From: Marsupella aquatica
Taxonomy: Eukaryota; Plantae; Marchantiophyta
Length of the DNA stretch: 64,000 nt
NCBI GenBank assembly: GCA_973895155.1
Contig: OZ316896.1
Span: 16,664,654 to 16,728,653, forward strand
Direction: 5' to 3'
The position numbers were made by a program, and so were the translations under genes. The notes below the pieces were generated by a model. The model searched no databases. It worked only from the letters and a program-made list of their open reading frames with translations, and was not told the origin of the DNA. Of this stretch, positions 1,440-30,095 are shown in pieces (position 1 is the stretch's first letter; every line of letters starts with the position of its first letter).

Positions 1440-2112
1440 GCAAGCAACCGAGAAACGCAACGAAACGCAACGCAACGCAACGCAACGCACACAGACAAGC
1501 ACGAATGCAGGCACGCAGGGAGGCAGGGATGAAGGACGAGACGAGGAAGGCGAAGACGACGACGGTAAAGAATCACGGACGATCAACGCATAATCCCGCA
1601 GCACCGAAGTCGAGAGAGAGCCAGGCCGGTCGTCAATTAGCACGTCCACAGACACCACACCATCATCACACCCAGAGAGGTGACAAACAGGGAAACACAC
1701 GAACAAATGACGAAACAAGATGATGCCACCACCGCCAGCTTTTGGCTTCCTCCAATCAAGCAATCAACCAAGCAATCAATCACTCACTCCCTCACTCACT
1801 CAATCACTCAACCCAACCCCAACCCCAACCCAACCAAAGCGCTCCGCTGATCCGCTGATCCGCACCCCCTCCTCCTCCTCCTCCTCTCTTTCCGTGCCAT
1901 GCTTCGGTTGGTTGCTTTCCTTGCTCATCCGCTCTGGTCGTCGTCGACGACATTGCATTGTAGTAGTCGTCGCATCCACCACCATAGCAACCCCGCCACG
2001 CCACGCCACGCCACGCTCAGCCCAGCCCAGCCCAGCCCAGCCCAAGCCAAAGCCGAATCAATAATCAATCCCATCCAAGCGATGAACCCCTCTCTCTCTC
2101 TCTCTCTCTCTC
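1440..2112. repeat. Cluster of microsatellites ((CGCAA)n, (TCAC)n, (CCACG)n, (CAGCC)n, (CT)n), probably the long 5' leader/promoter of a minus-strand gene running off the left edge
   Basis: Simple repeats are directly visible at ~1455-1490, 1780-1810, 1995-2045 and 2090-2112. The overlapping ORFs are low-complexity translations of these repeats. The leader interpretation is inference. Confidence 0.6.
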
Positions 2113-3068
2113 TCCACCACTCCACCACTGTAGCGCGGAACGAACGAAGGAAGACGGGAGGAGAGAGGCTGGTGGCGTGACCGCACGCACACCCCCCAAT
2201 CCTCGCCTTTCTTCAACTCGCCCCTTCCCCCCGCTTCATTCCCGTGTGCCTAGTATAATAATAGTCGGAACAACAAACAAGTGAACAACAAACAAGTGAA
2301 CAACAACAATGGCAGCAACAACACGAAACAAGTCCAGGCTCAGCTCCTCGACCTCGCTTTCCGGCCACATGACGGACGGAAATCCCTCGGACGAATAACA
2401 CGAAATAAGCTCGGCCTCAGCTCGTTTTCCGGCGACATGACGGACAGAAATTACTCCTTCGCGGCCGCGGAATCCCTCGGACGGACCTGCAGACGAGGAT
2501 CAGTCGCCGCAAAGCTGAACGGGCGGCTTCCACTAACTACGGTTACACTAGGGGAATGGATTATTCGCCGCAAAGTCAGGACGGGAGACGCTGCCAAGGG
2601 ACGGAGTGACGGGGACGGGCTTGGGGAAGCCGCAAAGTCTCATGGGACGAAGATGTGTCCCACTCCAGTCCCACTCCAGTACCAATTACACGGGAGCATT
2701 TATTAGCGGTGTCGGGATTATTTTCCATTGGTCTAGCAATGTCCGTGTTTATTTGAAGTTTTGCTTTAGATGCCATAAACTGGAATCAATCCAAACCTTT
2801 GAACTCATATGACTATGAGATCCCAAAGTGCTCCTTGGACCAGGCGGTGACCAAAGCTCTGTGGTGGATATTGTGATAGTCATTATCACAACTTAAAAAA
2901 CCCAAGCCTAATGACAGGCTTATCAGGGCAGCCCCCTTGAGTGATTGTTGCCATTTTGGGATGGCCTGTTCAAAGGGTCTGACAGAATACCCATCCCAAA
3001 GCAAACACCAACTATTGTATATTAGTGTTCTCATTAATAAAGGCTAAAGTGCACCCCAACAACAACTA

Positions 3069-3518
3069 ATGTTCAGACCCATTAATATATTCTACACCCT
3101 GGAGACATTTCAGGTCTTCAGATTTGTTACTCTGGCCAAGGTTTTTGTTTGGAGCATACTTGCTCAAGGACTTCTTACAGGTTCTCAGGCCCTTAGGAGT
3201 GGAAAGTCTGACAGTTGTTGCCATATCTGCCAGGGAATACTCAAGACCATTCCCCATCTTCTCTGTGATTGTTTCCATGCCAAGTACTGCTGGAGGACAG
3301 CTTGTGATTGGCGCATTGGGGGCAAGATTGAACCTCATTTCAAGCTAGTTGGTACCGCTCAACCTTTGAAGATCAGGACACAACCAGATATATTTCTAGT
3401 TTACCAAGTACTGTGGAGTATACAGTTGGCACAGAAAGGGCAGGTCTTTGATCTAACCAAGCGCAGTCTCTTTAATCAACGATCAACTTTGTCTGGAAAT
3501 TTTGATCATCTACTTTAG
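3069..3518 (+). mobile_element. Degenerate L1-type LINE ORF2 C-terminal fragment (zf-RVT zinc finger)
   Basis: The ORF contains KVFVWSILAQGLLTG...CHIC...TIPHLLCDCFHAKYCW and VLWSIQLAQK..VF, matching the CCHC zf-RVT signature and the W.IW..RN..VF motif of plant L1 ORF2. Confidence 0.75.
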
Positions 3519-4734
3519 CTGTTGTTGAGGCAAGCACCCCTCTCAGGAACAAGCGCACAAGACTTCTATGAACGGGAAAAAATGCTACTATAGCTTCTGA
3601 GAACCCCACTATTATTGTGACAAGGTCCTTGAACACTCCCTTTCTGAATATTGGTTGCCTTATCTTGGAGAGAAACAGACACTACTGAAGTTGCTTTTGG
3701 CCCAATACTCTTAGAAGGATCTAAGAATAAATGTATACTGTCACTTAATGTTTCTATGTTCTTGTTTTGAAAGGTCTCCTGCTTGACTGACCTGATCACA
3801 CACCTTTTCACTACTGTAGATACTATTGGACTCTCTGGATGATGGGACAGCCCCTGTGGAGGACCATGTTGGTTGGTCTGGTCTGAGAGTATGTAATGGT
3901 GGCATGAACACCTTTGATGTTGTTGAAGCGGGTCAAAATGTGTTGGCCTTTTTGCCTTGAAAGGTCCTGATATGCCTCTCTTGGCCTGCTGGTTTCCCCC
4001 ATCCCGGTAAGCAGAGTACCATTGCGAGTTGCTTGTTTTGAAAAATTCTAGGGTTTTGTTTGCCATTCCCCAAGTAAATCATTTCTAAGGTGTCAGGATT
4101 TTTTTGAAGTGCACAAAAAGCCCAAACCATTTGCCAACCATACTTAAACTTATCTAGGCCACCCTAAAGCCTACTTATTCAACTCGATTGCCTTTCAAAA
4201 CACATGGATTTGAGAAATAAGAACCTAGTGTGATCCAAAATATTCTTTTGACACTTGTTCAACAAAATATTATTTTTATATATTTTATAAAGTAAAATTG
4301 GTCATGTAGATGTATTGTAGAATATTCTCAATATAAAATTGAGATGTATTAATTACTTCAGGATCATTTGTACTTGTCTGGAAAAGTCCACCAAATAACC
4401 TCCAAGTGAACAAAACAAGAAGCCTTAAGGGATGAGTCCAAAGCCTTATTTCTCTTTTCAAAATCTTCATGATATTAAAAAGTGTATACCAAAAAACCAC
4501 CAAAAAATGGTATGTATTTTCCAAACTAGACTCAAGAGAATTTTACCACCAAAATCTAAGCATATCTTATATGATATTCTCACAATTGTATAAACCTTGA
4601 AATATGCACTTTATAAAAGTAATCAAAATCAAACTCATCGATCAGAGTTTAAGTCAAACTCAAAGTTTTACAAAATATAACCCAACTTAAGCCCAAGTGG
4701 TTTCAAATGCTACGAGTCCCTCTATTTATCTAGT

Positions 4735-7700
4735 CTAATCCAAAGGGACCGCTTCCCCTTCCCCGGTTCCGGAAGTCCCTGTCGTCAATTCTGGAACAAT
4801 TGTGGCATCGTCAACCACGCTATCCTCTCCGGCCTGAGGAATGTCTTCCTCACTCTCCTCATCCATCTCCCCCTGTCCGTCTTCCTCTTCAATGTTATCT
4901 GCAAGGTTAAGAATCCTCCCTTTCAACACACTGCTCTGTCGCTCGTCAATCTCAATGGCAACGCAATGTCTCCCCATGGCCAAGGAGGAGGTTGTCCCAG
5001 TCCCTGATCCTGAACAAATATCCAAAACCCAGTCTCCAACCTGACTAAAATGACTCACTTCCCAATCTAACAATGCACGTGGTTTCTGATAAACATTCAC
5101 TGCCTTGTTATCCCCGTTGTGTTTCAGCTTCTTAGTCACAGCTGCGCATACAACCACATTGTTCCTTGATTCATTTGTGTCAAAATTGAAGTGCTCCAAT
5201 GACCGTTTACCATCCTGGCTGTGAAAGCCAATTGTAAAGCACTCAAAGTTGCTGTTCAATCTTGGTCCACCAGCATTCTTCACATTATCCTTAACCCTGA
5301 AAAGTCACAAAAAGTCAAGGAGTTATTTAAACTGAGAAACATGGTTCATGAAATCATGAATAACTAATAGTTGTTTTTTTCAAAAACAAATATTTCTTAC
5401 CACACACAATTCTGGAACCCTCCATTACACTCCGCTTTCAAAACGGTCTTGATGGCCTCATATTGGTCAAGGCTGTGGTGAATGATAATACGCCACAACT
5501 TTGCAGTAGTAGCCACCTTGAACGATTGGACCATTTTTGTGATCTCCTCAGTTCCCCATCCAATAGTGTCTTCATGAAGACATCCAGGCAATGCAAACCT
5601 ATAGGGAATATCCACTAAAGCTAATGTGTAAGCCCGACCCAGAACCACCTCATGTAATCGCTGAGCATCATGAGTAAAAATATCATAGTGCACATCACCA
5701 AACTCTGGATGCTCAAACGAATTTGGATGAAGTTCCCCCTCTTGGGTTTGCCGACTAGAAGTCTTCATGGATAGCCAATTTTGGGCTTGCACAATATGCG
5801 CATTGAATTTGTCCGGGAATGACTTGAGATCTTTGCCTTCCTCATCTCCCTTCTTTTTCCGGGAGGTGGTATCTTTCTACAAAAAGGAACTGTAGAATTA
5901 GAAACAAGGATTCCAAATATTAAATGAATTCAAACAATCATTCGAAGAAAGGTGACAGAATCTTACCCATGTCTGGAAAACAGGTACGAAATTCTTAAGC
6001 ACATTGTCTGTGCAATGCTCAGGGTACTTGGTTTTACAACCTGACCAACTCTCCTCGTGTAGACACGTGAGGAAGGCCTTCTGCACCTGCATCTGAAATT
6101 TGTGTCGAGTAAATTCGTGACCCATTTCCTGTAAAGAGAGTTCTTTAGTAAGAACTCTCTGTAACACTGGGCAAATCATATCAGGATCTTTCAAGGCCTG
6201 CATGTGTCTCCACTCTGTTAATTTCATGTCCTCATAAGGCAATTTGGCATCTCCAGACTTAGAGACTTTCTTCTTGCCTTTGTCTCCTTTTTGACCTTTG
6301 ATCTCACACATCTCCCACTTGTCACAAATCTGCCTCACAAATGACCACACAGGATCTTGTCGGAATGCCAACTGAAATAGGTTATCATTGGCATTAAGAA
6401 CCTCAGCATCCTTTCGTACACCCCAATCCTTGAGATTGATTTCAGTAGCACACTCTTTCTTGAAATCCTGGTTGGACGACAATCCATTCTCAACAAATCT
6501 CATGTGAATATAATTTACTCTCTGGATTGTCGTCATCTGTTGTCGAAATTCAGAATCAATATTGTGACTCCACGCAAGGTTTCTTGCCTCTTGCACACTC
6601 AATCCCGCAAATATCCAAGATTGCACTCTCCGAAATGCCTTGTTGTTAGGGAACTGAAGAGCAAGGTCTGCTTTGGCACAGGCTGAATGGTTGCCCCCAA
6701 TCACATAATAATGGTAATCAGCTTTCCTTGAAAAATCAAAGTCTTGCCTAGTAGCACACTCCTTCGGATCCACCAAGAGGACAAACGGAGCTGCAAGTGG
6801 ACTGGCACCTACAGTCTTCATCCGCAAGGTCAATTGGGTCAAGAAATATGGTTGGATGTGTCGGACCTGGTAAATGGGCAAGCCCACAGCCTTCTCTCTC
6901 ACTGGAGGGTAAAGTTGACCAATGTCAACGGTCACGGTCTCCTCTTGAACACCACATCTTCCCAGAATCTCCTCCTGGTACAATACCCGTGCATCCATTG
7001 ACATTGATTGAGCCTTTTGCTCCAAATGCGTTGGAATTTTCTCCAAAGTCTTCTTTTTTGACTTTGTAGCACTGGGCTCGGTAGGCTCAGGAGTCATAGC
7101 AGGTCGCTTCTTTGAAGAAATGCGAGTTCCAGTCGTACCTTGTGCCGACCCACCAGTCAAAGCCGTTCCCTGGGATGATCTGCCAACTTGAGATCCCCCT
7201 CCAGATGCTGCTGCTTCCCGGGAGGTTGTAGGCGCTACCACGGTCAAAATATCATTGGGTAAAATGCTAGGCCTCGATCCAGAAGGAACACCGGAAGCCC
7301 CAGATTTGGGTGGACGACTTACTCCCTTCTCTGCCGACCTTCTCCGGAGAATCTCTCTTGATTTTTGGATTGCACTCTTTAAAGTGCTAGCGTGAAATTC
7401 AAACACAAAACCGGAAATCTTTCCCGCGACGTCGTGGTAACGTTCCTCACTCGAAAGAGACTTGACAGTCTCAATGATGCTATCGATGTCCTCATCGAGA
7501 TAGCAGGTGGCAGCCGTTCCAGAAAACCTCTCCACATCCACGACAATCAAAGTTGAAGTTTCCTTCGTTGTGATCAACATGTTCACAACTTCGTCGCCCC
7601 GTCGAAATACATCGATGCGGCCGTAATTTACCCACCCTAATGCCCCCGATGGAAGCCCCTCAAATACACACAGCATTAGGAAGGGCTTCTTCCATGTTTC

Positions 7701-7790
7701 TGTCCCTAAGGAAATCGTCCAGGATGAGTTGTGGAAGTCTGTCAAAGGATGGCGCGAAAAGATGTCATCCACCAGCTCTTCCTGCGACAT
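4735..7790 (-). CDS. ParB/Srx-like domain + beta-class amino DNA methyltransferase (N6-adenine/N4-cytosine family), 953 aa; exons 7790-5967, 5876-5401, 5296-4735
   Basis: GT-AG introns 5966-5877 and 5400-5297 join three ORFs in frame with no lesion. ParB-like core: YQVRHI...APFVLLV...YYVIGGNHSACAKADL...EARNLAWSHN. MTase motifs are in beta order: LALVDIPY (IV), CVWVK...NFE, YQKPRALL (X), VLDICSGSGTG (I), CVAIEID (II). Confidence 0.85.
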
Positions 7791-8546
7791 TGTTATGTTT
7801 TTGCCTGATCTTCAAACCTGAGAACATACCACAAAATCAGTCCACTTCAACCCCAACCTGCGAGACAAAGTGCCACAGAACCAAGGAATGTGCCAACAAA
7901 TGGCTACTAAAACCGTGTCCTTACGGATCTAACAATGCTCTCGGCCACCCCAGGACTCCTATCATGAATTCATGAAGGGAGTCTCCCTCTCGCTCCGACC
8001 TTCTTTGCTTGTACACCTCGGTGATGCAGAAGGGTATTTAAAATAGGGTTCGGAGGGGGGTGACGTGAAGAAATCACCCAGGGCCTAAATTACTACCTAA
8101 AACAGGGTCGAAATGAAGTGCGACCGCGACAACTCGCGACACGTCGCCGATGAGTGCTGAAAATGGCACGAAATTGGACAACGAGATTGTTTTTCACTCT
8201 TTTACAAAGGAAATCCAAATGACATTGAGTGAAAATGAATGGGCTGCCCCGTGTTCCTTGGTTATACATACTAATCACGGATCAGGCGCGACTTAGTAAA
8301 ATTAACCCAGAATCATGATAAATCAATGTTTTTGGGCCAATTATTCATGAATATTTCGGGGTATTAACGGGAAAAAGCTTGCAAATTTCATGAATATTTG
8401 ATATTTTTGAAGTTAAAAAGTCCCAACAATCCGTGAAAAACTATAAATAGGCTCGTTTATTCATGACTCTTGGTCATTATTTTGAGAAGATTTGTTAGAT
8501 TTTACTGATTTTCTGAGTTTCTTGTCAATTTGCACTAGTTTTTCCA
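7791..8546. promoter_or_regulatory. Bidirectional promoter/leader region between the MTase and transposase genes
   Basis: CTATAAATAG at 8441-8450 lies upstream of the + gene ATG (8547). A TATA-like TTTAAATA lies on the minus strand at ~8035-8042. Six TCATGA sites occur in the interval. Confidence 0.5.
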
Positions 8547-11500
8547 ATGGCGGCGTGTTACGAATCAGATGATTATTCAGATGGAGTTTCTGATGATGTT
8601 TCATTGCCGGATGGCCCCTGCACAGTGGTTGGCCCAGATATCCCTGGAATAACTACTGTTTTAGATATGCCACCCCCACCCCTATGAGCAAGTTAAAACG
8701 TAGTCCTTTACGACTTGCAATTAGTGGGAAGAAATCATTGGTCGGTGGTAAAGAGAGGTCAAGGAGCTCCTCTGACTCCTTGGAGAGTATTGGTCCACCT
8801 GGACGTCAAGTTGTATCTCCTTTGTCACCAACAAAGGACAAATTGGGGAGTAATCTGGAAGGTTCAATGCCTATTTGGATGTCTGGGAAACGGTCTCATG
8901 AATTCATGAAGACTGGATTTGGAAAGACGAAGAAGGCACTAAGTGGGGAAAATGACAGAGATTTTTGCAGTCTCCAAAGTGTTCAGCGGCTGAAGCAAAT
9001 GCCAAAAAGTAAAACCTTTGGTAAGCCACCATCGGAAACATTTCACAGGGGGATGAGGGAAGAAACTAGACGACCAGTGTTATTGAAAAGTATTCCAGAA
9101 AAGAATTCTAATGTGCGTTCCTCAGTTTTACCTAGGAGTCATGGTGTTGGGGCAGGGAGCGGATCAAGTCACGGAAACTCAAACAGGGAAACCAACCTGG
9201 TGGAGAGGGACCCTAGGAAAATATTGAAAGGGTCCCTACACGGTAATGGAGGGATTTCTGAAATACGCCCAGGTATTCCAAGGGTGCATAGAGTGAAGGA
9301 AGAGCCTCCATCTCCGAAGGCTGCAGGTCTGGAATCTAGGCATGTTCAGAAGCAAAAGTTGGTGACCATTTCATCATCGAATGAAAGCGAGTCTTCGGAG
9401 AGTGGGGAGGATGATGATGTTCCGGTGGCATCTAGTCGTTACAAACGTACGAGCAACGCCACTTTGTGTGAAACAAAGTTGAAAGAGGAGGATATCAAGA
9501 AAACAAATAGTAAGTACTGTTGTCAGAGTCATTGTCTCCTAAGTCTATCTCCAAAAGAAATTTGTGAGGCGCGTTCTAAATTTTTGAGGCAGAAATCTCA
9601 GGATCGATCTTTATCTTTGCAGTGGCTTATAAAGCGAGACGGAAATGAAGGAGGGAGGCAGACTATATCTTACACGTTTGGTCAAAAGAGTATTTGTCGG
9701 AAAGCTTTCAAGCTTATATTTTGCGTTGGCAATCATAGATTAAATAGAATTTTGAAATTAGACAACCAAGACTTAGGATATTCTAAACCAGTTGGACGCC
9801 CTCCATCTGTTAAAAGATTAGTCTTGGTCAGTTGGCTTAGGTCATTTTTTGAGACACGCGTGGAAACATTGCCAAATAAAGAAGTTTTACATTTACCGGA
9901 TAATTATTCAAAGCTGGAGGTATGGAAGATCTACGACTCCAACTATGCCAAGATTGATGAATCTTCAAAAATATCCTATCGACAATTCTTGAAAGTTTGG
10001 GTTCAAGAATTTGGTCATGTGAAGATTCCTCCAGTCAATCGATTCAGTGCTTGCGCGGATTGCGAGGAGTTCAAATCAATTCGGGACAAAGCTGTCTCGG
10101 AGACCGAAAAGAGTAAGTTACTTACAAGTTTGACAAGTTTTTGTTTCAAGAATATGGCTTAACACATGATTTCTAATTTTTTTTGAAGAAACTAACAAGT
10201 TGTTTTTCCAGGGCGAGGGGAAATTATGTTAAAAAAACATAGAGACCAACAATCCAAAGAACGTGAGAAACTCGCAAAGCATCGTAAGAAATGTTTTTCA
10301 AATTCTGATAAATATTTGGGAGTTGTCATTGATGGGATGGATCAGAAGAAGACAAGGTTGCCTCATTGGCCGCGGCCCCCAAAATCGGTGGACGAAACAT
10401 GTTTGATCCAAATGCACGTTGTCGGATGCCTGGTTTTCAATGGTGCACTATTTTCAAGAGTGTTTCTTAATTATCCTGTATTGCATAATGATGGAAACTT
10501 GACAGTCACAATCCTGCAAAGGGTGTTTCACGAATGGGAAGAAAAGCCTAGTGGCTTGCCGCCTGTTCTCTATCTTCAACTTGATAATACCAGTAGAGAA
10601 AATAAAAATAATTTACTCTTTGCCTATCTTCATATGTTGATTCGAAGAAAGGTTTTTCGGAAAATCAAACTAGGATTCTTGTTGGTTGGACACACACACG
10701 ACCAAATAGATCAAATGTTCAGTCGATTTTCTAAACGACTAGCAAGGTTTAAGGCATTCACATACGAAAGCCTATGTGATATTATTTGTGAATCATATCA
10801 ACCCCAACCAAATATCACTCTTTTAAAGGAAACATATGATTTCCGTCAATATGCCTTCTCAGATCCACCTTTAGTCATTGAAAGGATTCGAAATGTTACC
10901 TTCCACCACCAGTACAAATTTGCATTTGACAAGTTGGAAAATCAAGTTCCAACCCAATGGGGGAAGAAGTTTTCCACGGACTCAACTTGGAAACCTGACG
11001 GAGGCGTGAAATTTTTGAGGGAAGAGGAGCCAGAAAAGGTGATGGGTTGTGCTCCCGGATTACCCCTTTTCAAAAAGGGGGATAAGAACGTTACAAGGAC
11101 TCAACCAAATATGTCTAGTTCTTCAAGAATGACTTTGAAGGAGATGGATGATTCGTTAAATGAGATTCAAAAGGGAATACTTGCAGTTGAAACTTTATTC
11201 TCAGAAGAGGAAGTGAACTGGTGGAGAATGTTTTTTGAAGAGCAACGAGAATTGAATAAATCTTTGCTCCTTGATCAAAGACCATTGATTTTCCCTTTTC
11301 AATGGCCACGCTCCCAAAGGGAGATTGCTGTTGCTGCTGAAGTTCCCAGAGTCCTTGTCAATGTAAATTGAAGAGAGAGTATACAGACCTACCAGAGATA
11401 TATACGTGGGTCCTTATCGGAATCAAGGAAAGATAGATGCAGAGAAGGAGAATATGGAAGGAGACTTTTCGGATCTTGAAGTCAACACTTATATTTCTGT

Positions 11501-11939
11501 TGCTGGAGAAGAATCGGAAACATTTTGGGTGGCCAAGGTGGAAAGAATTGACCAGCGCGACGAGTTCAACATTCCAAAAATGATTTATGTTTTATGGCAT
11601 GCTACAAAAACCGGGTCAGATCCTTGGAAAGCCAAGTACTTACCAGAAGTCTTAAACTACGAAAAGAAGAAAAGTGGTCGTGGGAAAGGAACTTTGAAAC
11701 CAATATGGTTTCACCAAGAGCTTGATTTATCTTCAACGACTGTTTTTGCTTACAACTTCATGTTGACAAAATCTGATACATTGTACAAAAAGACAGCAGA
11801 TCGAATCAAAATCCAATTGACTGAATTTTTGGCAGAAGAGAAAGAGCAAGAACAAGAGAATGGATCAACTAGAACCCCGCTAGGAGATAAATCTAGGGAT
11901 ATTTCGTTTCAAGAATTGAGGACTTCTGGATCTGAGTAA
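8547..11939 (+). CDS. DDE-type transposase, Sola1-like/DUF7869-like; intron 10113-10211; two single-base frameshifts in homopolymers (~8680, ~11365)
   Basis: Cys-rich region CCQSHC...ICRKAFKLIFCV, then FSACADCEEF, VIDGMDQKKT, YLQLDNTSRENKN and FLLVGHTHDQIDQMFS. The GTAAGT...TTCCAG intron joins ORF 8684-10162 to ORF 10226-11371 in frame. The N-terminus (ATG 8547) and C-terminus (ORF to 11939) are each offset by one base. Confidence 0.75.
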
Positions 11940-12640
11940 TGAAAAGTAGTTATTGTTTGTGACATTACCATTGAAAAACATGGATAACTTGAAAATTTAC
12001 AAATTTTCAAAATGCCTTTACCACTTATTCATGAATTCATGGTTAAAGTTTCTTGAGAAATTTGTAGTTTAATATTATCTTAGTGGGTTGTGTTTCAATT
12101 CAATTAGATGGTGTCATTTCTATTCTCCTTGTCTTCTTTTCACAATAATGTGTATCAGGTTAAGTTGTAGTAATTTATTTTCTGGTTTTTAAATGACAAT
12201 GGCTTTTGGAGGTGATTTAGTTGTTGTTTCAAAAGACACCTCGTGTAATTGTGAGACCATTGTAGATAATAGTGTTGTATTTGAGATCATTTATTGGTGG
12301 AATGTAACTTCAGATGAATTTGGTCATTTTTAGGTGTCAAAACATAGCTAGTTTATGTCATATTTTGTTCGCTCCATATTTTTGCTCTAAAATAGGTGCT
12401 AATTTTTGCACTTTTTTTGACTTTTTCGTTGTTTTTCTGATTTTTTGGCTAGAGTTCCTAAAGTATGGGCTTGTTACTCATCATTTAAGGCTTCTTGTTA
12501 CAAATCTAAAATCACATTGCACCCATTAATTCAACCTGAATACAAGCAAGTTACATCTGGACCCCAGGTTTGGCCTTGACGGGCATATTGGGGTCTCGAC
12601 CCCATCAAACCGGCATCCGTCACCCGGTCGCCAGGTCCAC

Positions 12641-12825
12641 CACCCACCCGGCCAGCCCCAACCCCGACCCCAACCCCGCCCCTACCATTTTCGACCCAGC
12701 CCCAACCTCACCCGGTCCCCCACCCACCTGGCCCGCCCCGACCCCGACCCTGCCCCCACCATTTTTTACCCAGTCCAGCCTCGACCTCACCCGGTCCCCC
12801 CACCCACCCTACCCTGCCCGGCTGC
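12641..12825. repeat. C-rich imperfect tandem repeat, ~80 bp unit, ~2.3 copies
   Basis: The unit CACCCACC...CCCCGACCC...ACCATTTT...ACCTCACCCGGTCCCC starts at ~12641, ~12721 and ~12801. Confidence 0.75.
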
Positions 12826-13381
12826 GACCCCAAACCGGGGGACCGGCTCATTAGACCAGGGGAGTCCAGGGGGAGTCATGGGGAAAAATTGGGAATGGCC
12901 CGGGAATCAACGGGAATATGCATCAAATTGTCTGTTTTTGGTCCGTCATTTGACAGTTTATGTGCCCCGCAAGGCGTCAAGTTGCCCGTTAGGTTAAATC
13001 TGGTCTGGACCAGCATGATTATACAATTTCTTTGGTTGGTACAGGCTGGAAGTAAGATAATGGTGTGTTATTGGGTTTAATAACAGATAATTTTCTACAT
13101 ATAATAGATTTTTAATTCTAGCATCTTACTTATATAGCGCCAACTATGATCTAGAGTTGGGGCCTAGGTTTCTAGAGTGAAGCCTCTACTAGACCATAAC
13201 TACATGGTTCACCATGTAAATGGGAAAACTTATGGCTATGAGATATGTTAAATGATAACTATCATGCATGCTTTTTGTCATTATTTCTACTTACATTCAA
13301 AAATGGACTCTGTAGCCCCACCATAACATATGTGCAGGAAGAGGGATGTGCATAGAAAAGATGGTGGCATGTTATGTATGA

Positions 13382-13684
13382 CTAGCTCAATATCGGTGTG
13401 TTGCACAAAGATTTTGTGAAGAAAATAGATGTTGTATCGTCTAAAAACTTGTTAAGGAAAAAAAATGTTGCTAACAAAAAGATGTTGTGTCGCCCAAGAT
13501 GTTGTTAAGAAAAAAAGATGTTATATCGCCCAAGATGTTGTTAAGTTAAAAGATGTCGTGTCACCTAAGATGTCGTAAAGAAAAAAAGGGGTGGTGTCGC
13601 CCAAGATACAATCTTTAAAAAAAATGATGATGTGTATGATGGTTTTTTTCATTTCATTAAAATTCAAAGAATATAAGTAGAAGA
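13382..13684 (-). mobile_element. Non-autonomous Helitron-like element with internal ~38 bp tandem repeats
   Basis: On the minus strand it has a 5' TC end, a 3' GTGCAACAC hairpin and CTAG, between A and T. Internal repeats read AAGATGTTGTGTCGCCCAAGATG. It is homologous to 30943-31224. Confidence 0.6.
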
Positions 13685-20932: not shown

Positions 20933-21285
20933 TGTCATGCCGAGGGACAGTGCCGCTTGTGCACATCGGCATGTCCCTCGCATGCCCGCTAGGTATGGTT
21001 AGGGCTAGTGTACTACTTGAGTTAGTGTCATGTTCTTGTAGCGAGTCTGGGCTGTTCTTGAGGTTTGTTAGTGTGACGCCTGGACCCGGTCCTACTTAGG
21101 GCATGTTTTTCTTTGCTGTTCTTCAGTTCTTCTTGAATCGCTGTGAGACAGAGTTTTTCAGAGGCTGCTCGTCGATTCCGTACACGGAATTCACACAGTG
21201 ATTCGTTAGATGCTCCCGGCCGATCTTGGCATCTCGCCGGTTTTCGATTCGATTTCAGTACGTTTGTTTCTATCACGCCTTTTAT
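20933..21285 (+). repeat. Terminal repeat A1 (353 bp)
   Basis: Matches 30096-30448 with 3 substitutions seen; begins TGTCATGCC. Confidence 0.95.
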
Positions 21286-21298
21286 TCAAGAAGAACTG
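21284..21298 (+). promoter_or_regulatory. Self-priming primer-binding site (Tf1-like)
   Basis: ATTCAAGAAGAACTG is the exact reverse complement of CAGTTCTTCTTGAAT at 21124-21138 in repeat A. No tRNA-type TGG PBS is present here. Confidence 0.75.
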
Positions 21299-22540
21299 CC
21301 GAGTTAGCGGTGAGGAGAAGAAGTTTGCTCGTGGCAATTTCGACAATTTCTGGTGAAGCCATTGCAATTTCTTCGATGGACATTGGAGTGACGAGTTAAA
21401 AGTTATGGGTTTATTGTGGTGTTATGTGTATACTTAAGTGTATACACATAACAAGGGACCCGGATTTTTATTTTCTGGCCGCAACTTGTTTCGCGACTTG
21501 CTGTTGTCGACTGCTGCATCGACGCCGACTTCAAAGGGCACACCCACGCTCGTGTTTTTAACGACCTCTTTGGGGCCCTTTTTCGTTTACCGGCCACTAC
21601 TGCCTCGGCCACCGCGCGCCCCTTTTCTTTCGCCCTTTTTCGCCTTGCCAATCCTCGAAGTTCCTCCCTCCGTTTGTTTTCCTGCCTTTTCTTCTCTCGG
21701 TATCTCGCAGGCTGTGCGCATAGGGCATCGTGCCCTCCCACTGGCAGCATTTAATTAACGAGAGGAGGGGGAGCGAGTGCAAGCCGGGAGGAGGAGGCAC
21801 AGAGGCTACGAAGCATTAAAGGGGGGGGAGTACATTCGACTCCCTCTCTCGGGACTCCTGCCAAGCACGAGGCCTAACTTACAGGGCATTAAAGGAGGGG
21901 AGGGGAGGGGAGTTCAATTCGAACTCCCTCACACGGTGACACAGGAGTCTTTTTGCAGGGCACGAAGCCCATCCAACAGCATTAAGGAGGGGGACGCAAC
22001 AGGAGGGCACGAGGCCCTATGAGGAATTAAAGAGGGGGGGAGTACTCGCGACTCCTCTCTCGGGAGTCACTCGCTGCCAGGGCACAAGGCCCAAAAGGGG
22101 GATAGGGGGAGCTCATAGTGGGGCACGAAGCCCTATGCAGGGCCCGAGCCATTAAGTTGTCACCTCGCCTCAGCCTCGCCTCGCCTCGCCTCGCCCTGCA
22201 GCATAGGGTACGGTGCCTCCCGAGTGTGCGTACACCTGCTTCTTTCCGGCCTCTTTTTCTTCCAGGGAGCCCGACGATGTATCCACATTGGGCACCGACC
22301 GGTGCCCTTTATGTGTATACACAGACCCCTGTCTATACACATAACGGAGGCCCCTTTTGACCATTTCCTCTTGTTTTCTTTCCATTCATTTTCTTGTGAG
22401 CATATTTTTGGCAGGGCCGGTCTACACATTTCTGCCTCACAGTGTTGTTTCCTTTGTGGGTTACATTTCATAGCCTTGGGGTTGCCACACCTTTTTCTTG
22501 TCAGTTTCTTTCCTATTGGCACCCCGGGTGAGCATGCAGC

Positions 22541-25230
22541 ATGTCAGCAGAGGAGCCGAGTCGTAGCAGCTCATCGCCACCGACACCCCGGTACCACTTA
22601 CGGAGTGATCCACGACCGTTGGTGCCAATTTCATTGGAGTCTCGGCAATTTCGACGACGTCCACAGACAGCAGCAGCACACACACCACGCAATCCTCCTG
22701 CTACATTTGGCGGTCGCTTCACCACTACTCCGAAGCCTGCTATCACTTCATTGCCATTTACCCCTTCTACATCCGTGGTTGTTCCTGCTTCACCGACATA
22801 CAGCATGGATGCCAGCCACTCATCTGGCCGCATTGAACGCTTCAGCGGGCGGCCAGGCACTGTTTCTTTACGTGAGTTCAAATCCACTTTCTACACTGTT
22901 GTTTACGAATTGGAGTTGAAGTACGGCAGCAATTTCACAAATGCTTTTGTATTTAAGCAGCTAGCCAGGTATGTGCACCACGAGGCTTTGGATGTGTATG
23001 AGCAGCACTCTCAACGGCTGCTTGCTGTCACACAATTGCCTAACCCTGCCTATGCCAGTGCAATTGCGGCTGCCTCACAATTGACATTACAGAATGCCAT
23101 TGCAGCCCATGCTGCTGCTCCTGCCACTTCCCCTCCTACTCCAGTTCCTACCACTGCGCCAGTTACTCCCACTATCTTGGCACAGGCTACATCAGGCATT
23201 TCTCCCACCATTGATTCCCCTGCCTTTGTTGATCCAGTGGCTGAGTTTTTCCAGGTTCTTGAATTGGGATTCCCAATCAAGAGTGCTGACAAAATCATGC
23301 AGTTGGCGACCTTTGTGAGGCAGCGTGATGAAACCTTGAAGATGATGTATCGTCGGCTTCTTAAGCTAAAGGAGGACACCCAGAGCATCACTGACTTGGA
23401 AGCTGCTCATCGCTATCTTCGCGCATTGGAGGGCACACCAGCTCTCCATTCACAAGTGTTGCAGCAAGTATTCTCAGAGTTTGGAGAGAGCTACACATTG
23501 CTCAATGTCTACGACACTGCTGAGAAACTTGAGTTGGCCCATGCACATTATGAGGCCAGTATTGCGCATCCACCGCGATCTAGGTACCAGGCTGCTGCTC
23601 CTACAATGGCCACCCCTTCCCGTGTGCCACAGTATGCTTCCAAGACCAAACCAGCACATGCTGCTTTCATGCTGCCCTCTTGCAACTACTGTGGCAATCC
23701 TAATCACAAGGCTAATGAATGTGATATTGTTGCTGAGGACCTGTCTTGTGATTTTTGTGGGAAAGTGGGCCACTTGGAGGCAGTTTGTTTTGCCAAATTC
23801 CCAGAGAGGAAGCAGCTACAACAACAGGCCACTCATCCTACTCCTGTTTCCACTCCCCCACCAGCTAGGAGGGCTCCTACTGCATCAGTTGCTCCTCCTT
23901 CTAGTGGCAAAGCAACTAGTGCCAACAAATTGCCCAAGCAGCCACAGAAGCCCCCAGCTCAGAAGGAGGCTCACAACGCACAGGCAACTCAACTCCAGTC
24001 TCTGACTCATGAGGTTGAGTCCTTACGTGCCCAACTTGCCAACATCAAAGGCAAGTCCACTGCCTCTGCTGGTCCTTCTCAACCGGCTGGTCACGTGCAA
24101 CCCATCCCTGGCCCAGGCACCGCTGACAGTTCAGCACCTCTACCCCGCTCTTTCTATGGTTTACCATTTGATGCTCATATGGGTGAGTGTGTGCTGTCCT
24201 CTGCTCCACAGCCTGGCCTTACAACAGAATTTTCAGATTCATTCTGCCCTTCATATTTTGCTTACCAGCAGGCCAGTGTTGCCTCCCGTATTGCTCCCAC
24301 ACGCCGCATTGTACAGGCTGATGGTCTTGCTGCCGGTCCTATGACTAGAGCCAGGGGAGCTCGGGCTATCATGCCCCAATCTTTTCAGCCACTCACACTT
24401 GCTGAAGAGCGCACCTTGTTGGCGAGGGGGGAGGGAGCTGCAGCTACATCCATTCCACCACCAAGTGCTGCTGACATTTCACAGGGAGTTGTTTCTCCTG
24501 AGCTGCTTGAGCATTTCACCTCCGGTATGGCACAAAGGATTCTTACAACTCCACTTTTCAGTTGCCATGATTTACAGCTGGATGCTAGAGCTGTCCTCAG
24601 GGCGCTAGAGGGTTCACTGCATTCTTCATCAGCCCCTGTGACACCGGTTTTGGAGGTCCAATCTCATGTACATACTGGACCTTCTTCTTCTCCTTTACAT
24701 GTTTCCACTGGTTTGGCTGCCCCAGTACCGATTGCTGCTGATTGTGTGACCAGAGCTACACTTGATTCTGGTCATGCTGCTCCATCTTTCCTGGCTATGT
24801 TGTTGAGTGGAAAGACCGTGGACACTAACTCCCTTCACAAGGTACCTCATCATTTGCCGAGAGTGGTGCCTAGTGACAGGACTTCAGTTTCCACCACCAT
24901 TGCCATTGTTGACAACAGGAATTCAGTGGTCAAGTTGGAGGGTCACACTCCTCAGGTGGTCATGCTAGACACAGGTGCTCAACCAGTGATATTGGGCATT
25001 CAGTTTGCCAAGAAGATGGGACTGCTGACTGATCATTTACAGCAATCCAAGTGGCACATTCGGACTGCTAGTGGCACTGTGGAGGATGTGCTGGGTGAGA
25101 GTTTACTTTACTCACTCTCACTTTTAATGGAGGTACAGATCAGGAACTGCATTTCCCAGTCAGATGTCTGGTTACCAATGCCACTACGTATGATGTGCTC
25201 ATTGGCCAGGAGGCTTTGTTCCCACCAGGT
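22541..25230 (+). CDS. Gag (two CCHC zinc knuckles) + aspartic protease; frameshift near 25100
   Basis: CNYCGNPNHKANEC and CDFCGKVGHLEAVC at ~23681-23788; VMLDTGAQ at ~24960. The protease C-terminal YDVLIG continues in the -1 frame. Confidence 0.88.
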
Positions 25231-25632
25231 TTTACCATTGACAACTGGCATGAGCATGCATACTACAGAGTTGATTGGCATACTGATGGCTCACACTTGG
25301 GCTATATTCCACTTGATTTGCATGGTGCCCATACACCTATGGCTCACCACTGTGTGTTGAAAGCAGTGCACACAGCTACCTATGTCAACCACCCATTGCA
25401 AGATTGGATTGTGGAGGATGACGATGAGGTGGCTGCTGCACATGCTGCTGCATGTATAGCAGCACTTTCCAGCAACGTGGATCATCAACCAGAGGTGGTA
25501 CAACGGCTCCAAGCAGCCCATGGACCTTTGGTGGCTACATTGCGCAAGTTTGAAGACCTTGGGCAGCACAATGGACAGCCAATAGCCCCAATCTTGAGCG
25601 CACCAGTTACATGGACTCCTGCTCCGGATGGC

Positions 25633-26575
25633 CTTACATTGCTTGAGCTTTTTGGTGGCATTTCTACAGGCCTGGAAGCTCTCCTACAGTCTGGCATGGT
25701 GATGAAGCAGTACATCTATGTGGATATTGATCCAGGTGCAAGGCAAGTGGCTGAATCCCGTCTGCTGGAATTTTCAGAGCGATTTCCTCAGCAGTTTCCA
25801 CACAGTGCAAGGAAGTCTACATTTTCTTTCTTTCCTTCAGATATCCAGCTTGTCCAGCACCGGCACTTAACCCTTCTTGGCTCCCTTGATTTGATCATAG
25901 CTGGTTGGGAATGCCAAGGGTTTTCAGCTGCTGGTCACGGTGCTGGACTGCATGATTCTCGTTCTGGCCTTTTCACAGCATTGGTTCAGATTCTCACCTG
26001 GGCTCAATCCCTTTATCCTGCTGTTGGTTATATCATTGAGAATACTCCATCTCAGTTTGACCAGCGACCACAGGTCAAAGAGGATTTCAGTGTGGTCCAG
26101 CACTACTTGGGACCACCCCTTCTCATTGATGCAGTGCACTGTGGTTCTTATGCACATCGTCTTCGTAACTTTTGGACTAACCTTGCACCACCTTCCTTGT
26201 TGGAGTTAGCTCTTCACCACACATCCAGGGACACTAACCTCACAGTGGACCAGATTTTGGATCCTGACAGTTCTTGCCAACCAGTTACACGGCAAGAGCC
26301 AGCACCTTGGTATCCAGCCAATACCATTGGACAGCCCCGTGCTGCTTGGCCTACATTGTGTCCTTTCCAGGTGCACATGCTTTTCAGGGTGATGGTCCTG
26401 GCCTGGTTTACCGACATTCTACCGGTACATGGGATGAACCTAGTCCTGAGGAGAGAGAACGGGCTATGGGCTTCCAATCTAGTACTACAGGTCACACCCA
26501 GATCACCAGGCTGGCCAGGAATGCTTTACTTGGCAGGGTAATGGATCTCAATGCTCTCACTTGGCTTCTGGTCAC
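25633..26575 (+). CDS. C5 cytosine DNA methyltransferase domain within pol; frameshift near 26358
   Basis: Motifs in order: LLELFGGIS (I), YVDID (II), DIQ (III), IAGWECQGFSAAG (IV), DSRSGLF (V), IIENT (VI), AHRLRNFW (VIII). ERERAMGF (IX) and LLGRVMD (X) follow in the next frame. Confidence 0.92.
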
Positions 26576-26699
26576 TTGCATCCTTTTTCAGATGTCCATT
26601 CCTCCAGCATCAGGAGTTCCAGTTCTACCACTCCATGGTGCACTTACCTTTGTCCAACACTCACCACTTCAGTCCCAGTGTTGGGGGGGAGGAGGTCCC

Positions 26700-28245
26700 T
26701 TGTAATGTGGCTGACATTATTTCTGAGTTTCATGGTGTGGATCAGACCAGAGCAACAGATACAGCAGGCCTTGGAGAGGCCTCATCACTTTATCAGCAGC
26801 ATGCTAGCAGCTTGGACAGTGGAGAGGCTAGCACTTCTGGCTCTTCAAGCACGAGTACATCAGGTCCTATTCCTAGTGTTGCGAACTACACATTTATCAT
26901 GGGCAACCACTTGAGTAAAAGACAGAAGGACCAGCTGCTGAATTTGCTCCTCAAGCATGAGAACGTGTTTGCTTTCTCTATGAAGGACTTGGGTAAGTGC
27001 AAGACTATGCAGTTCTCCATTGAGTTGGCTGATGAAACACCTATCTTCAGGCGAAGACACCGTTTGAGTAAGCATGAGTGGCAGTTGGTGGATGAGAGGT
27101 GCCAAGAGCTCTATGAAGCTGGTCTTATTCAGCCATCTACATCAGATTTTGCAGCAGCTACAATGATGCCTGCAAAGAAGGATTCCAGTGGATTGTGGAC
27201 AGAGAAGCGCATGTGTGGGGACTACAGGCCACTAAACCTGGTCACACCCCAGGACAGGTACCCCATGCCACGGCCAGAGGAGCTATTTGATAGCATTGGA
27301 GACTCAGACATCTTCACTCTTGTGAATCTAAGGCAAGGCTTTAACCAGATTTTGCTGCTTGCAAAGGTCCGCAAGAAAACAGTTTTCCATGGTAGTAACC
27401 AACTATGGGAGTGGTTGGTGATGCCATTTGGCTTGAAGAATGCGCCCATATTCTTTCAAAGAGTCATGGACCAGGTTCTTCAAGGTGCTGAGTTTCTGAA
27501 ATGCTACATTGATGATGTGTTGGTCCACAGCAAAGGATTTGACCAGCATCTACTTGACCTTGAGGAGCTATTCATGAGGCTTAAGAAGGTGAACCTAAAG
27601 ATACACCCCAAGAAGTGTGAATTTGCTGTCAGATCAGTAGTATATCTTGGGCATCGCATTCTTCCAAATGGAACCATGGCTCACTGGGCCAAGGTGGTAT
27701 CCATCTTGGAAATGCCCACTCCTACCGATGTTCACACTTTGAGGAGTTTTATTGGGTTGTGCAATTACTACCGAATCTACATCAAAGATTTCAGTACCAT
27801 TGCACACCCATTGTATGCTTTGTTGAAAAAGAATGTGACTTGGACATGGAGTACAGATGCTGAGGCAGCATTTGCCACTTTGAAGGAGAAGCTCTCAGAA
27901 TACCCGGTGTTGAGAAGACCTGATTTCAGCAAGGTCTTTGTGTTACACACAGATTGGAGTGCCCTTGGGATTGGTGCCATTCTGGGCCAGCATGATGAGG
28001 AAGGTAAAGAGTACGTCATTGCCTATGCATCCAGGAGCAACAATCAGGCAGAGAGTCATTATTCTTCTTATGAGGGTGAATGCCTTGCTGTTGTGTGGGC
28101 TGTCATACATTATAGGCCCTACCTCTATGGGACCAGGTTTGTTCTCTACACCGACCACCAGCCCTTGAAGTGGTTGATGACCAACGACAAGCTTACTGGC
28201 AAGCTTGCTCGTTGGGCGCTCATACTCCAGGAGTATGATTTTTAG
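26700..28245 (+). CDS. Reverse transcriptase + RNase H (Ty3/Gypsy type)
   Basis: RMCGDYRPLN, MPFGLKNAP, YIDD (27505-27516), YLGH, HTDWS, YSSYEGECLAV and TDHQPL. Motif A reads VNLRQGF (Asp to Asn at 27325). An in-frame TAG at 28243-28245 interrupts YDF*VIHRPG. Confidence 0.95.
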
Positions 28246-29878
28246 GTAATTCATAGGCCTGGTGTGACACATCAGAATGCTGACACTATGTCCCGCAGCC
28301 CTTTGATTACCTCTGATGATTCCTCAGATGCACGGCAAGATTTTGACCAGGCTTCCATCCTGCCTACATTTCATGCATCGACCTATCTTGCTTTGCTGCC
28401 ATGCTATGTTGTTGACCAACCTATGGTGGACATATGGGAGGACAGCGACACTCTGAGATTTCTGCTGCATGGGGAGTACCCCTCACATGTTACTGCTGCC
28501 CAGAGAGACCGAATTCAGCAAAGGTCCAAGCGCTACTTGTGGAAGGGAGATCATCTCGTGCGTTGCTTGCCAGACAGGGAAGTGGTGGTTCCACCTATTC
28601 ATGAGAGGGTTGGCCTTATCCGTAAGGTACATTCTGAGCTTGGTCATTTTGGTGTTAAGAGGACTTACAGCCTCTTGGTCCCTCATTATCATTGGAGAGG
28701 CATGCATGGCCAGGTTCGAGATGTTATTGCCCGGTGTGAACAGTGTGATAGGGTGAGGACTTCCTTCACATCTCGACAACCCACACTTCATCCACTCCCT
28801 ATTCAGGGCATGTTTTATCGCTGGTCATATGATTTGGCTGGAGAATTACCCCTCACGTCTCGGGGTAATCTCTACATCATGATCATGATAGAGCATTTCT
28901 CCAAGTGGATAGAACTTGTGGCATTGCCGGATAAGACCTCCCATAGCACCAGCCAGGCATTCCTACAACAAGTTCTCAGCCGCTTTGGAGCTTGTGCAGA
29001 ATGTCTCACTGACCAGGGCTCAGAGTTTAGAGGAGAGTTCCAGGAGCTGCTTGATCAGGCCCTCATTGATCATCGCCGGACATCACGAGATCACCCACAG
29101 GCAGATGGCTTGGCAGAGCGCATGGTTCAGACATGCAAGAAGGGCCTTCGGAAGATCTGCCTCACCAAAAACAAGGAGGATTGGGACCTGGCCTTACCCT
29201 ACATTGCCATGGGGTATAGGATGTCCAGACATGCATCACTGTCTAACTTTTCTCCCTACTTCTTGTTGTTTGGTCGTCACCCAGTTCCACCTTCTGCTAT
29301 TGCTTCTCACATGTTTCAGGTGGTGGACTTGGATTCAGCTGTGACTTGGTCTGATGTGATCTCTGAGAGGGCTGCCCCTATTCAGGAGGGTTATGCCCAT
29401 GGCCATGGAGAATTTGGCCATTGCACAGCACAGGGACACACTGCGTTATGCACACACACGAGGGGGCACTTTTCAGCCCAAGGTCAGGAAGTTTGAAGTG
29501 GGAGATTTTGTGTACTTGCAGCGGCAAGCTAACGACACCCTGGACACCTCTACCAGTCGCACTATTCTGAGGGTCAAAGCTATTCGACCGTCTGGAGTGC
29601 TAGAGTTACAAGGGGCAGATGGGCGCACAATTGCTGACAATGCCAAGAATTGCGCCCCTTGTCATCTGCCTAACCTGGATCCCACCATTGTGACTTCTAC
29701 TTGGATTCCACCTGTGGACTACCCTTGCAAAGTGTGTTTGCGAATTGATGATGCTGACCAGATGCTGCTGTGTGACAATTGTAATGGAGGGTACCATCTT
29801 TTCTGCCTTCGGCCTGAACTTACCCAGGTGCCAGAAGGGTTATGGTTTTGCCCTTCCTGTGCTCCACGTGCTATCTGA
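28246..29878 (+). CDS. DDE integrase with C-terminal PHD finger; frameshift near 29378
   Basis: HSELGH...CEQC zinc domain; YDLAG, TDQGSEF and AERMV catalytic motifs; FEVGDFVYL. The C4HC3 PHD CKVC...LLCDNCNGGYHLFCL...WFCPSC lies at 29726-29860. Confidence 0.93.
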
Positions 29879-29910
29879 CTTTTCTTTAGCCCTCCTTTTG
29901 GCTGTGGTCT

Positions 29911-29917
29911 GGGGGGG
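29911..29917 (+). promoter_or_regulatory. G-tract, putative polypurine tract
   Basis: GGGGGGG immediately precedes repeat B1, 33 bp after the integrase stop codon. Confidence 0.6.
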
Positions 29918-30093
29918 ATACAGAGGTTTACACCTCCACTACGTACATACCACCTCAGTTGCTTTTTCTTGGCACCTGTGAATGTGATTGGACTTTTTCT
30001 ATGCATGTTGGTTGCTAGCAGCTTGCACATATGCATTGCCGGTGACTTGTATGTTTTCGATACACTATGGCTACGATACTATATGTCACGACA
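29918..30093 (+). repeat. Terminal repeat B1 (176 bp)
   Basis: Matches 30449-30624 with one substitution seen; ends GTCACGACA. Confidence 0.95.
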
Positions 30094-30095
30094 GC

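What the first reader, a model, noticed from the sequence alone, without database searches (positions are those of the whole stretch)
4735..7790. Intact intron-containing ParB/Srx + beta-class amino-methyltransferase gene linked to a transposase
Seen: a 953-aa spliced ORF without lesions, with a ParB-like core (GGNHS where ParB has GxHR) and a DIPY...QKP...DICSGSGT methyltransferase. Known: beta-class DPPY enzymes (CcrM, M.RsrI type) make N6-methyladenine and SPPY enzymes make N4-methylcytosine; ParB-MTase pairings are typical of phages and prokaryotic mobile elements, and this is not an MT-A70 protein. Inference: a eukaryotic DNA transposon carrying its own bacterial-type DNA modification enzyme, analogous to TET/JBP-carrying fungal transposons, and a possible source of 6mA or 4mC in a plant genome.
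Basis: partly seen in the sequence, partly recalled or inferred. Interest (0 to 1): 0.88.

Follow-up and report, generated by a model that had tools for sequence, protein, structure and literature searches.

The report
Plant transposon carrying bacterial-type DNA methylase
An 8-kb, multi-copy DNA transposon in a plant genome carries, back to back with its transposase, an intron-containing gene for a ParB-fold protein fused to a bacterial-type DNA methylase that likely marks the element's own repeated palindromes; the same arrangement was described in a brown alga in 2025, so this extends a known but untested kind to land plants.

Summary
Observation confirmed. The 953-aa spliced ORF, both introns (same positions in two relatives at 66-68% identity), the PF01555 domain (above cut-off) and the ParB fold (AlphaFold pLDDT 93; top Foldseek hits Noc and ParB) hold up. 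The gene lies in an 8,086-bp cut-and-paste element (4414-12499) with 32-bp inverted ends, a 4-bp target duplication and a divergent DUF7869 transposase. Contig depth is about 25-50 times that of the flank. Linkage to the transposase recurs in L001 and in Riccia (adjacent locus tags). Relatives occur in liverworts, Chara, a fern and Ginkgo. The kind is in print: Ectocarpus Sola1-1_Ec32 (PMC12477816) has the same gene pair and similar ends. New here: land-plant members, and a 14-bp palindrome, TCATG-N4-CATGA, found four times in the element (one copy with a mismatch) and conserved inside intron 2 of all three loci; it is a candidate parS-like site or methylation target. Best reading (inferred): the protein binds these sites and methylates its own element, more likely 6mA than 4mC. 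No activity or expression is shown. This copy's transposase has two frameshifts and its methylase has at least one private missense change.

The parts
4414..12499 (.). Whole DNA transposon, 8,086 bp, termini AACAA...TTGTT
   Evidence: Inverted repeat; depth step and differing flanks at 12499-12501; unique-flank contigs end at 4441
4410..4413 (+). Left target-site duplication ACAA
   Evidence: Sequence
12500..12503 (+). Right target-site duplication ACAA
   Evidence: Sequence
4414..4445 (+). Left terminal inverted repeat (32 nt; 84% complementary to the right arm; first 15 nt identical)
12468..12499 (-). Right terminal inverted repeat
5967..7790 (-). ParB-methylase exon 1 (aa 1-608): conserved N-terminal domain of unknown fold (aa ~5-150), low-complexity linker, ParB domain, helical domain
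6540..6944 (-). ParB/Srx N-terminal fold (aa ~283-417), with GGNHS at 6684-6698
   Evidence: Foldseek Noc E 2.4e-5; VIA Z 9.9, rmsd 2.5 over 99 aa to Caulobacter ParB
6093..6539 (-). Helical domain (aa ~418-566), weakly like the ParB/Spo0J DNA-binding domain
   Evidence: Z 5.1 over 96 aa to Spo0J-parS and Z 3.7 to a ParB DNA-binding domain; weak on its own
5877..5966 (-). Intron 1 (90 nt)
5401..5876 (-). Exon 2 (aa 609-767) with catalytic motif IV DIPY at 5601-5612
5297..5400 (-). Intron 2 (104 nt), containing one palindrome
4735..5296 (-). Exon 3 with QKP and SAM-binding motif I DICSGSGT (4999-5022), then an acidic tail
   Evidence: PF01555 35.3 bits
8547..11939 (+). Transposase gene (DUF7869, Sola1-like), about 1,100 codons. 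Predicted intron 10113-10211 (unverified). This copy is frameshifted near 8672 and 11362. Conserved Asp codons at 10331, 10583 and 10709.
   Evidence: PF25273 E 1.5e-51
5346..5359 (.). Palindrome TCATG-N4-CATGA in intron 2; same place in L001 and L002
7962..7975 (.). Palindrome between the two divergent start codons
8896..8909 (.). Palindrome in the 5' part of the transposase ORF
12029..12042 (.). Palindrome (1 mismatch) downstream of the transposase

Best explanation
This is an accessory gene of a multi-copy, Sola1-like cut-and-paste DNA transposon, and its ParB-fold/amino-methyltransferase product likely binds the element's own TCATG-N4-CATGA palindromes and would methylate the element in cis, more likely at N6-adenine than N4-cytosine. 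Shown: element ends, target duplication, high depth, gene pair, domain order, fold, purifying selection, conserved palindrome. Inferred: that the protein is made and active; that it dimerises on the palindrome through its helical domain, as ParB does on parS; that the CATG halves or nearby adenines are the substrate; and that the mark tunes the shared divergent promoter or transposase access while the host silences copies by CG methylation. Step odds: transposon-borne 0.97; family catalytically active 0.75; palindrome is its site 0.6; 6mA over 4mC about 2:1.
For: Ends, target duplication and depth step. dN 0.11-0.38 against dS 1.6 or more, or saturated, in all 9 exon comparisons, methylase exons included. 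Motif IV starts with Asp in 16 of 16 aligned segments and with Ser in none; distant members have DPPY. Phage ParB_N + DPPY methylases have the same domain order and align along the whole methylase domain. CATG-N4-CATG occurs 4 times in 8,086 bp against 2 in the other 55.9 kb, 6 times in L001 and 3 times in L002; 0 of 600 order-3 Markov simulations reach the count in any of the three. It keeps its place in an otherwise diverged intron 2, with a locus-specific centre. A published analogue proposes self-binding and self-modification (PMC12477816 passage; Bostrychia preprint passage).
Against: There are no expression, modification or binding data. The motif is D-[I/A/F/L/V]-P-[Y/H/C] in close relatives, not DPPY, and only 6 of 35 long relatives pass the PF01555 cut-off (many are fragments or mis-spliced). 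The ParB motif has Ser or Thr in 63 of 89 rows where ParB has its conserved Arg (register by motif, role of the Arg recalled), so a CTP-clamp mechanism is doubtful. The DNA-binding-domain match is weak (Z 3.7-5.1). The palindrome was found post hoc in the window and its general form was chosen after seeing L001 and L002; only three loci were tested. The N6_N4 domain has switched between 6mA and 4mC repeatedly (PMC8885841 passage). This copy has drifted: 10 of 15 window-specific A/T-for-G/C changes fall in CG context.
Confidence: 0.45

Rival explanations
1. Same element and self-targeting, but the enzyme makes N4-methylcytosine (for example at the C of CATG or at CG), which could block or mimic host 5mC.
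For: PF01555 covers both chemistries and specificity has switched repeatedly (PMC8885841 passage). Liverworts already use a beta-class 4mC enzyme (MpDN4MT1, TSPPY; bioRxiv 2021.02.12.428880 passage).
Against: None of 16 aligned motif-IV segments starts with Ser. Most of the 9 solved-structure hits with a stated specificity are adenine methylases, as are most of the 15 listed phage hits of a full-length relative.
Confidence: 0.2
2. The protein is a sequence-specific DNA-binding regulator (repressor or anti-silencing factor) of the element, and the methylase domain is weak or dead and acts as a binder.
For: Non-canonical DxPY, loss of the ParB Arg, and DIPH/DFPC/DALY variants in relatives. Inactive methylase domains in DIRS elements are a precedent (PMC4738411 passage).
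Against: Asp, Pro and Tyr of motif IV, QKP and DxxxGSG are all retained, and exon 3 is as constrained as the ParB part (dN 0.11-0.23).
Confidence: 0.2
3. The enzyme is active, but the palindromes belong to the transposase or a host factor, and the methylase marks another motif genome-wide.
For: One half-site lies at 4467, near the left end, and several lie in the intergenic region. Many transposases bind internal repeats (established knowledge).
Against: The full sites lie about 460 and 930 bp from the nearest ends, are absent from the terminal repeats, and one is conserved inside the methylase gene's own intron.
Confidence: 0.12
4. A captured host gene or prokaryotic contaminant lying by chance beside a transposase.
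For: Prokaryote-type domains.
Against: Conserved spliceosomal introns; location inside shared ends with a target duplication; linkage in distant relatives.
Confidence: 0.02

Closest known systems
Sola1-1_Ec32 of Ectocarpus (PMC12477816; passages and supplement rows read)
   Same: Cut-and-paste element with a gene on the strand opposite the transposase encoding a ParB-like domain plus an N4C/N6A methyltransferase; AAC...GTT termini; 4-bp target duplication biased to end in A; self-modification proposed, not tested.
   Different: 21.5 kb with 282-bp terminal repeats and a 1,104-aa protein in a brown alga, against 8.1 kb, 32 bp and 953 aa in a plant. No binding site was proposed in the passages read. 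I could not compare sequences (FASTA supplements unreadable).
Bostrychia Plavaka accessory genes PAG2/PAG3 (bioRxiv 2025.02.11.637652; one passage)
   Same: DNA transposon carrying an N6A methylase and a ParB-like protein, with inverted-repeat arrays proposed as ParB sites.
   Different: Plavaka transposase; ParB is fused to a 2OG oxygenase and the methylase to SET, in separate genes; the repeats are tandem arrays, not dispersed single palindromes.
Phage ParB-beta-methylase fusions at terminase loci (e.g. Javan93 QBX22681.1; loci described in PMC4738411 passage)
   Same: Same domain order, ParB_N then N6_N4_Mtase; a profile of 5 eukaryotic domains matches at E 2.8e-14 (two-sequence search).
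   Different: The phage protein is 418 aa with GGHQR and DPPY. The plant protein adds an N-terminal domain, a long helical insert, introns and an acidic tail, and has GGNHS and DIPY.
Domesticated eukaryotic beta-class enzymes: bdelloid N4CMT (PMC8885841 passages) and Marchantia MpDN4MT1 (preprint passages)
   Same: Bacterial-type amino-methyltransferases with introns (N4CMT) acting on eukaryotic DNA.
   Different: Host genes making 4mC; MpDN4MT1 has TSPPY and N4CMT has a chromodomain; 'ParB' does not occur in either text.

Membership tests
Beta-class N6/N4 DNA methyltransferase (PF01555) | Profile match above the curated cut-off | tested here: met
   35.3 vs 26.7 bits, exon 3 alone
Beta-class N6/N4 DNA methyltransferase (PF01555) | Permuted order: catalytic motif IV before SAM-binding motif I | tested here: met
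   DIPY aa 697, DICSGSGT aa 859; aligns with DPPY and DPFxGSG of phage enzymes
Beta-class N6/N4 DNA methyltransferase (PF01555) | Canonical (D/S)PP(Y/F) motif | tested here: inconclusive
   D, second P and Y kept; first P replaced in the window and close relatives; DPPY in distant members
Beta-class N6/N4 DNA methyltransferase (PF01555) | Methyl transfer to DNA, and which base | not testable with these tools
   Needs an assay
MT-A70 / METTL4 | Match to the MT-A70 profile | tested here: not met
   No such family among the Pfam hits of the three exons at E up to 1 (exons scanned separately)
ParB/Srx superfamily | ParB/Srx N-terminal fold | tested here: met
   Model pLDDT 92.9; the top 9 Foldseek rows are Noc, ParB or Srx, 4 of them with E under 0.001; Z 9.9, rmsd 2.5, 99 aa; the top viral hits are mostly annotated ParB-like
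ParB CTPase (canonical) | GxxR arginine patch (recalled as needed for CTP binding) | tested here: not met
   GGNHS; the column holds S 53, T 10, G 6, C 4, L 4 of 89; register by motif only
ParB CTPase (canonical) | HTH domain binding a palindromic parS site | tested here: inconclusive
   Weak fold match, Z 3.7-5.1; a candidate palindrome exists; binding untested
Sola1 DNA transposons | Terminal inverted repeats | tested here: met
Sola1 DNA transposons | 4-bp target duplication | tested here: met
   ACAA on both sides, one insertion only; Sola1-1_Ec32 is also 4 bp
Sola1 DNA transposons | AWWT target preference (PMC3845634 passage citing Bao 2009) | tested here: inconclusive
   The one site seen is ACAA, not AWWT; one site cannot test a preference, and Sola1-1_Ec32 is described as ending in A
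Sola1 DNA transposons | Transposase groups with Repbase Sola1 proteins | not testable with these tools
   No Repbase set. Only a DUF7869 match and three conserved Asp in 21 aligned sequences; the DUF7869-Sola1 link is my inference from recalled motifs and the Ectocarpus parallel

The most novel reading that the evidence does not exclude
A streptophyte-wide family of transposons encodes its own 'ParB-parS' epigenetic module. Each subfamily's protein reads a palindrome with its own 4-bp centre and writes a bacterial-type mark (6mA at CATG) on its own copies to escape host 5mC silencing. Such elements would be a real, sequence-specific source of 6mA in liverworts, ferns and gymnosperms, and a reservoir from which host amino-methylases are domesticated.
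Probability: 0.25. Interest if true: 0.88.

Novelty: new member of a known kind. Interest (0 to 1): 0.62.

Why it matters
Transposon-borne ParB-amino-methylases have been noted in algae but, in the passages I read, not assayed. This element is compact and apparently recently amplified, and it comes with a candidate target sequence that differs between subfamilies. That turns a speculation (elements that epigenetically mark themselves) into a direct experiment, and names a motif to look for in long-read 6mA/4mC data from bryophytes, ferns and Ginkgo. It would also add a non-MT-A70 route to amino-methylated DNA in land plants.

Tried and rejected
No whole genome is held, so copy number rests on contig depth, which the tool says is not a copy number. 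No RNA holder was listed among 7 runs; this is no evidence on expression. A single-sequence fold of exon 1 was unusable (pLDDT 37). Sequence searches did not detect ParB: Pfam 0 of 15, PDB profile 0 hits. Pattern-seeded scans, which reach close relatives only, found none in viral contigs or prokaryotic genomes; exon 2 had no phage match. The Atlas gave no usable hit for aa 1-155; for the ParB part it gave unnamed and DUF3723 clusters at 0.96 and a ParB_N cluster at 0.92 with only 133 shared features, a lead only. A right end near 12603, suggested, was rejected: one search shows the step at 12499-12501 and a separate repeat from about 12567. An X2 contig that starts matching at 12500 after 59 other letters may be an empty site, but those letters were not shown. 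The wide VIA search was not run. Three look-ups of earlier findings returned nothing. Bao 2009 is not held, and Iyer 2011 was seen only as a reference. No complex prediction was sent.

Full report
Observation. Of 44 open GT-AG combinations, this one is singled out by relatives. The two metagenome loci L001 and L002 (68% and 66% identical over 353 aa; 2 confirmed of 106 pattern matches) have both introns at the same codon and phase. Several database relatives called by prokaryotic gene finders also lose similarity at the intron-1 donor. Exon 3 passes the PF01555 cut-off (35.3 vs 26.7 bits). A profile of 23 exon-3 sequences finds 9 solved structures, among them MboIIA, RsrI, CcrM and DpnA. ParB is invisible to Pfam. 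An AlphaFold model of aa 274-607 built on 115 sequences has pLDDT 92.9; its best matches are Noc, ParB and sulfiredoxin, with Z 9.9 and rmsd 2.5 A over 99 residues to Caulobacter ParB. The following helical part resembles the ParB DNA-binding domain only weakly (Z 3.7-5.1).

The element. A 32-nt inverted repeat (4414-4445 / 12468-12499, 84%) encloses this gene and a divergent transposase gene, and ACAA stands on both sides. In run X1 the summed contig depth is 20-22 over 3000-4100 and 484-1019 over 4468-12541; in X2 it is 37-52 against 1910-4352. Unique-flank contigs stop at 4441, one k-mer into the left end. At the right end depth falls from 2446 to 6.6 (X1) and from 10498 to 76 (X2) across 12501, and four listed loose ends at 12499-12501, in three runs, each continue into different sequence (73 further rows not shown). 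X1 contigs of 0.6-1.8 kb at depth 480-620 differ from the window at 0-8 letters. This suggests a few dozen near-identical copies; the tool warns that depth is not a copy number, and X1 may be the source sample. The transposase matches DUF7869 (E 1.5e-51) and keeps three conserved aspartates across 21 aligned sequences. In this copy it is broken by a 1-base and a 5-base deletion relative to the high-depth contigs. Among the best-supported differences listed, 15 are A or T where X1 reads G or C, and 10 of those 15 are in CG context against 12.5% of cytosines (P about 2e-6; only 40 of 664 rows were shown). This fits a copy that the host has methylated and that is decaying. One such change turns a conserved Pro into Leu at aa 687.

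Relatives and linkage. The ParB region finds 235 clusters at E up to 0.001 among 1.84 billion representatives. Of 20 looked up, 15 carry names: Riccia sorocarpa 3, Chara braunii 5, Adiantum nelumboides 2, Ginkgo 1, Ptychodera 2, Actinia 1, Clastostelium 1. The animal and amoebozoan hits are weak (23-28% identity) and none passes the methylase cut-off. Calypogeia fissa gives the closest named hit (62%). Six of 35 long relatives pass PF01555. L001 has a divergent ORF whose first 21 residues match the window's transposase start at 15 positions; L001 also has a stop in exon 1. L002 ends before a partner could be seen. Synonymous sites are saturated (dS 1.6 or more) while dN is 0.11-0.38 in all 9 exon comparisons. 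The host is a plant: an FT/TFL1-like gene lies at 60.1-60.7 kb. I did not identify it further; the nearest named relatives are liverworts.

A candidate target site. Counting palindromes and 8-mers in the element turned up TCATGA pairs spaced by two bases. TCATGAWWTCATGA occurs 3 times in the window, all inside the element, and 0 times on average in 100 shuffles. The general form CATG-N4-CATG occurs 4 times in the element and twice in the remaining 55.9 kb, although CATG alone is rarer inside (4.1 vs 5.7 per kb). It occurs 6 times in L001 and 3 times in L002, and 0 of 600 order-3 Markov simulations reach these counts in any of the three. Over the whole window the general pattern is only mildly enriched (6 seen, 1 of 100 shuffles as high). 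Sites lie upstream of the methylase gene in all three loci, in the 5' transposase ORF in the window and L001, and at the same aligned place in intron 2 of all three, whose other letters have diverged; the centre differs by locus (AATT/AAAT, ATAT/ATTT, CTAG). The motif was found post hoc and tested on three loci only. A 14-16 bp palindrome is what ParB dimers bind, and CATG is a common target of bacterial and viral adenine methylases (both recalled, not from a call).

Mechanism. I commit to self-marking in cis: the protein would bind these palindromes and methylate its own element, probably adenine, and so influence the divergent promoter or transposition (0.45). For adenine: motif IV begins with Asp in 16 of 16 aligned segments, never Ser; distant members read DPPY; and a full-length relative's methylase domain finds 574 phage records, the listed ones mostly annotated adenine-specific. 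One of these, Javan93, is a ParB_N + DPPY fusion a few genes from the terminase subunits. Against: specificity cannot be read from the domain (PMC8885841, passages), the first Pro of DPPY is replaced, and the ParB arginine is Ser or Thr in 63 of 89 rows, so a CTP-driven sliding clamp is not assumed. Rivals: 4mC (0.2), a non-catalytic regulator (0.2), palindromes belonging to another factor (0.12), chance neighbour (0.02).

What is known. PMC12477816 (passages, part of the reference list, supplement rows) describes Sola1-1_Ec32: a 21.5-kb element with an opposite-strand 1,104-aa ParB-like + N4C/N6A methylase, AACCG-CGGTT termini and a 4-bp duplication biased to end in A. [quoted passage not shown] The window's element has the same gene pair and AAC...GTT ends, so I file it as a new member of that kind. 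Formal Sola1 membership is not tested, since no Repbase proteins were available, and the one target site is not AWWT (PMC3845634 passage). PMC4738411 (passages) lists ParB-linked eukaryotic methylase clades in chlorophytes, chytrids and haptophytes; I saw no land-plant transposon clade there. PMC5751038, PMC9033089 and PMC3985635 (passages) gave only background on Sola. Searches aimed at such a report (listings only, the top 10-20 rows where more were held) showed no land-plant report and no palindrome; one search returned only the Ectocarpus paper. The library lacks most subscription journals, the Ectocarpus FASTA supplements could not be read, and bioRxiv supplements are closed, so priority is not established.

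Verdict. Real, well supported and biologically interesting, but not a new category: a land-plant member of a recently named, untested class of transposon accessory genes, with a candidate DNA site that makes its function testable. Interest 0.62.

Noticed in passing
window 20933-30629: Gypsy-type retroelement encoding a C5 cytosine methyltransferase (PF00145, 29 bits, above cut-off) between protease and RT, and a PHD finger after the integrase. It has split direct repeats A...B-A-B at 99% identity. This matches the KnitGypsy-Dnmt3 description in PMC5890265 (passages), reported there from the alga Klebsormidium, so the window holds two different methylase-carrying mobile elements about 8 kb apart. 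Its ORFs are interrupted by stops or frame changes.
   Followed up: partly
window 7340-7790 (minus), aa ~5-150: N-terminal domain conserved in close relatives (Calypogeia E 3.9e-30 in a session-only search), with no Pfam or Atlas hit; fold unknown.
   Followed up: partly
L001 2105-2311 and L002 1037-1101: Both relatives appear to have an extra intron in the N-terminal part that the window's gene lacks.
   Followed up: no
window 12460-12499: Depth at the terminal repeat is about four times the internal depth in X1, more than two ends explain; short non-autonomous derivatives may exist.
   Followed up: no
window 12567-12850 and 13150-13640: Separate repeats next to the element: a C-rich repeat starting with a short hairpin, and a high-depth 36-bp tandem array also found near 31,000.
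   Followed up: no
window 60115-60660 (minus): First exon of an FT/TFL1-family gene (Hd3a E 3.5e-13).
   Followed up: no
   Followed up: no
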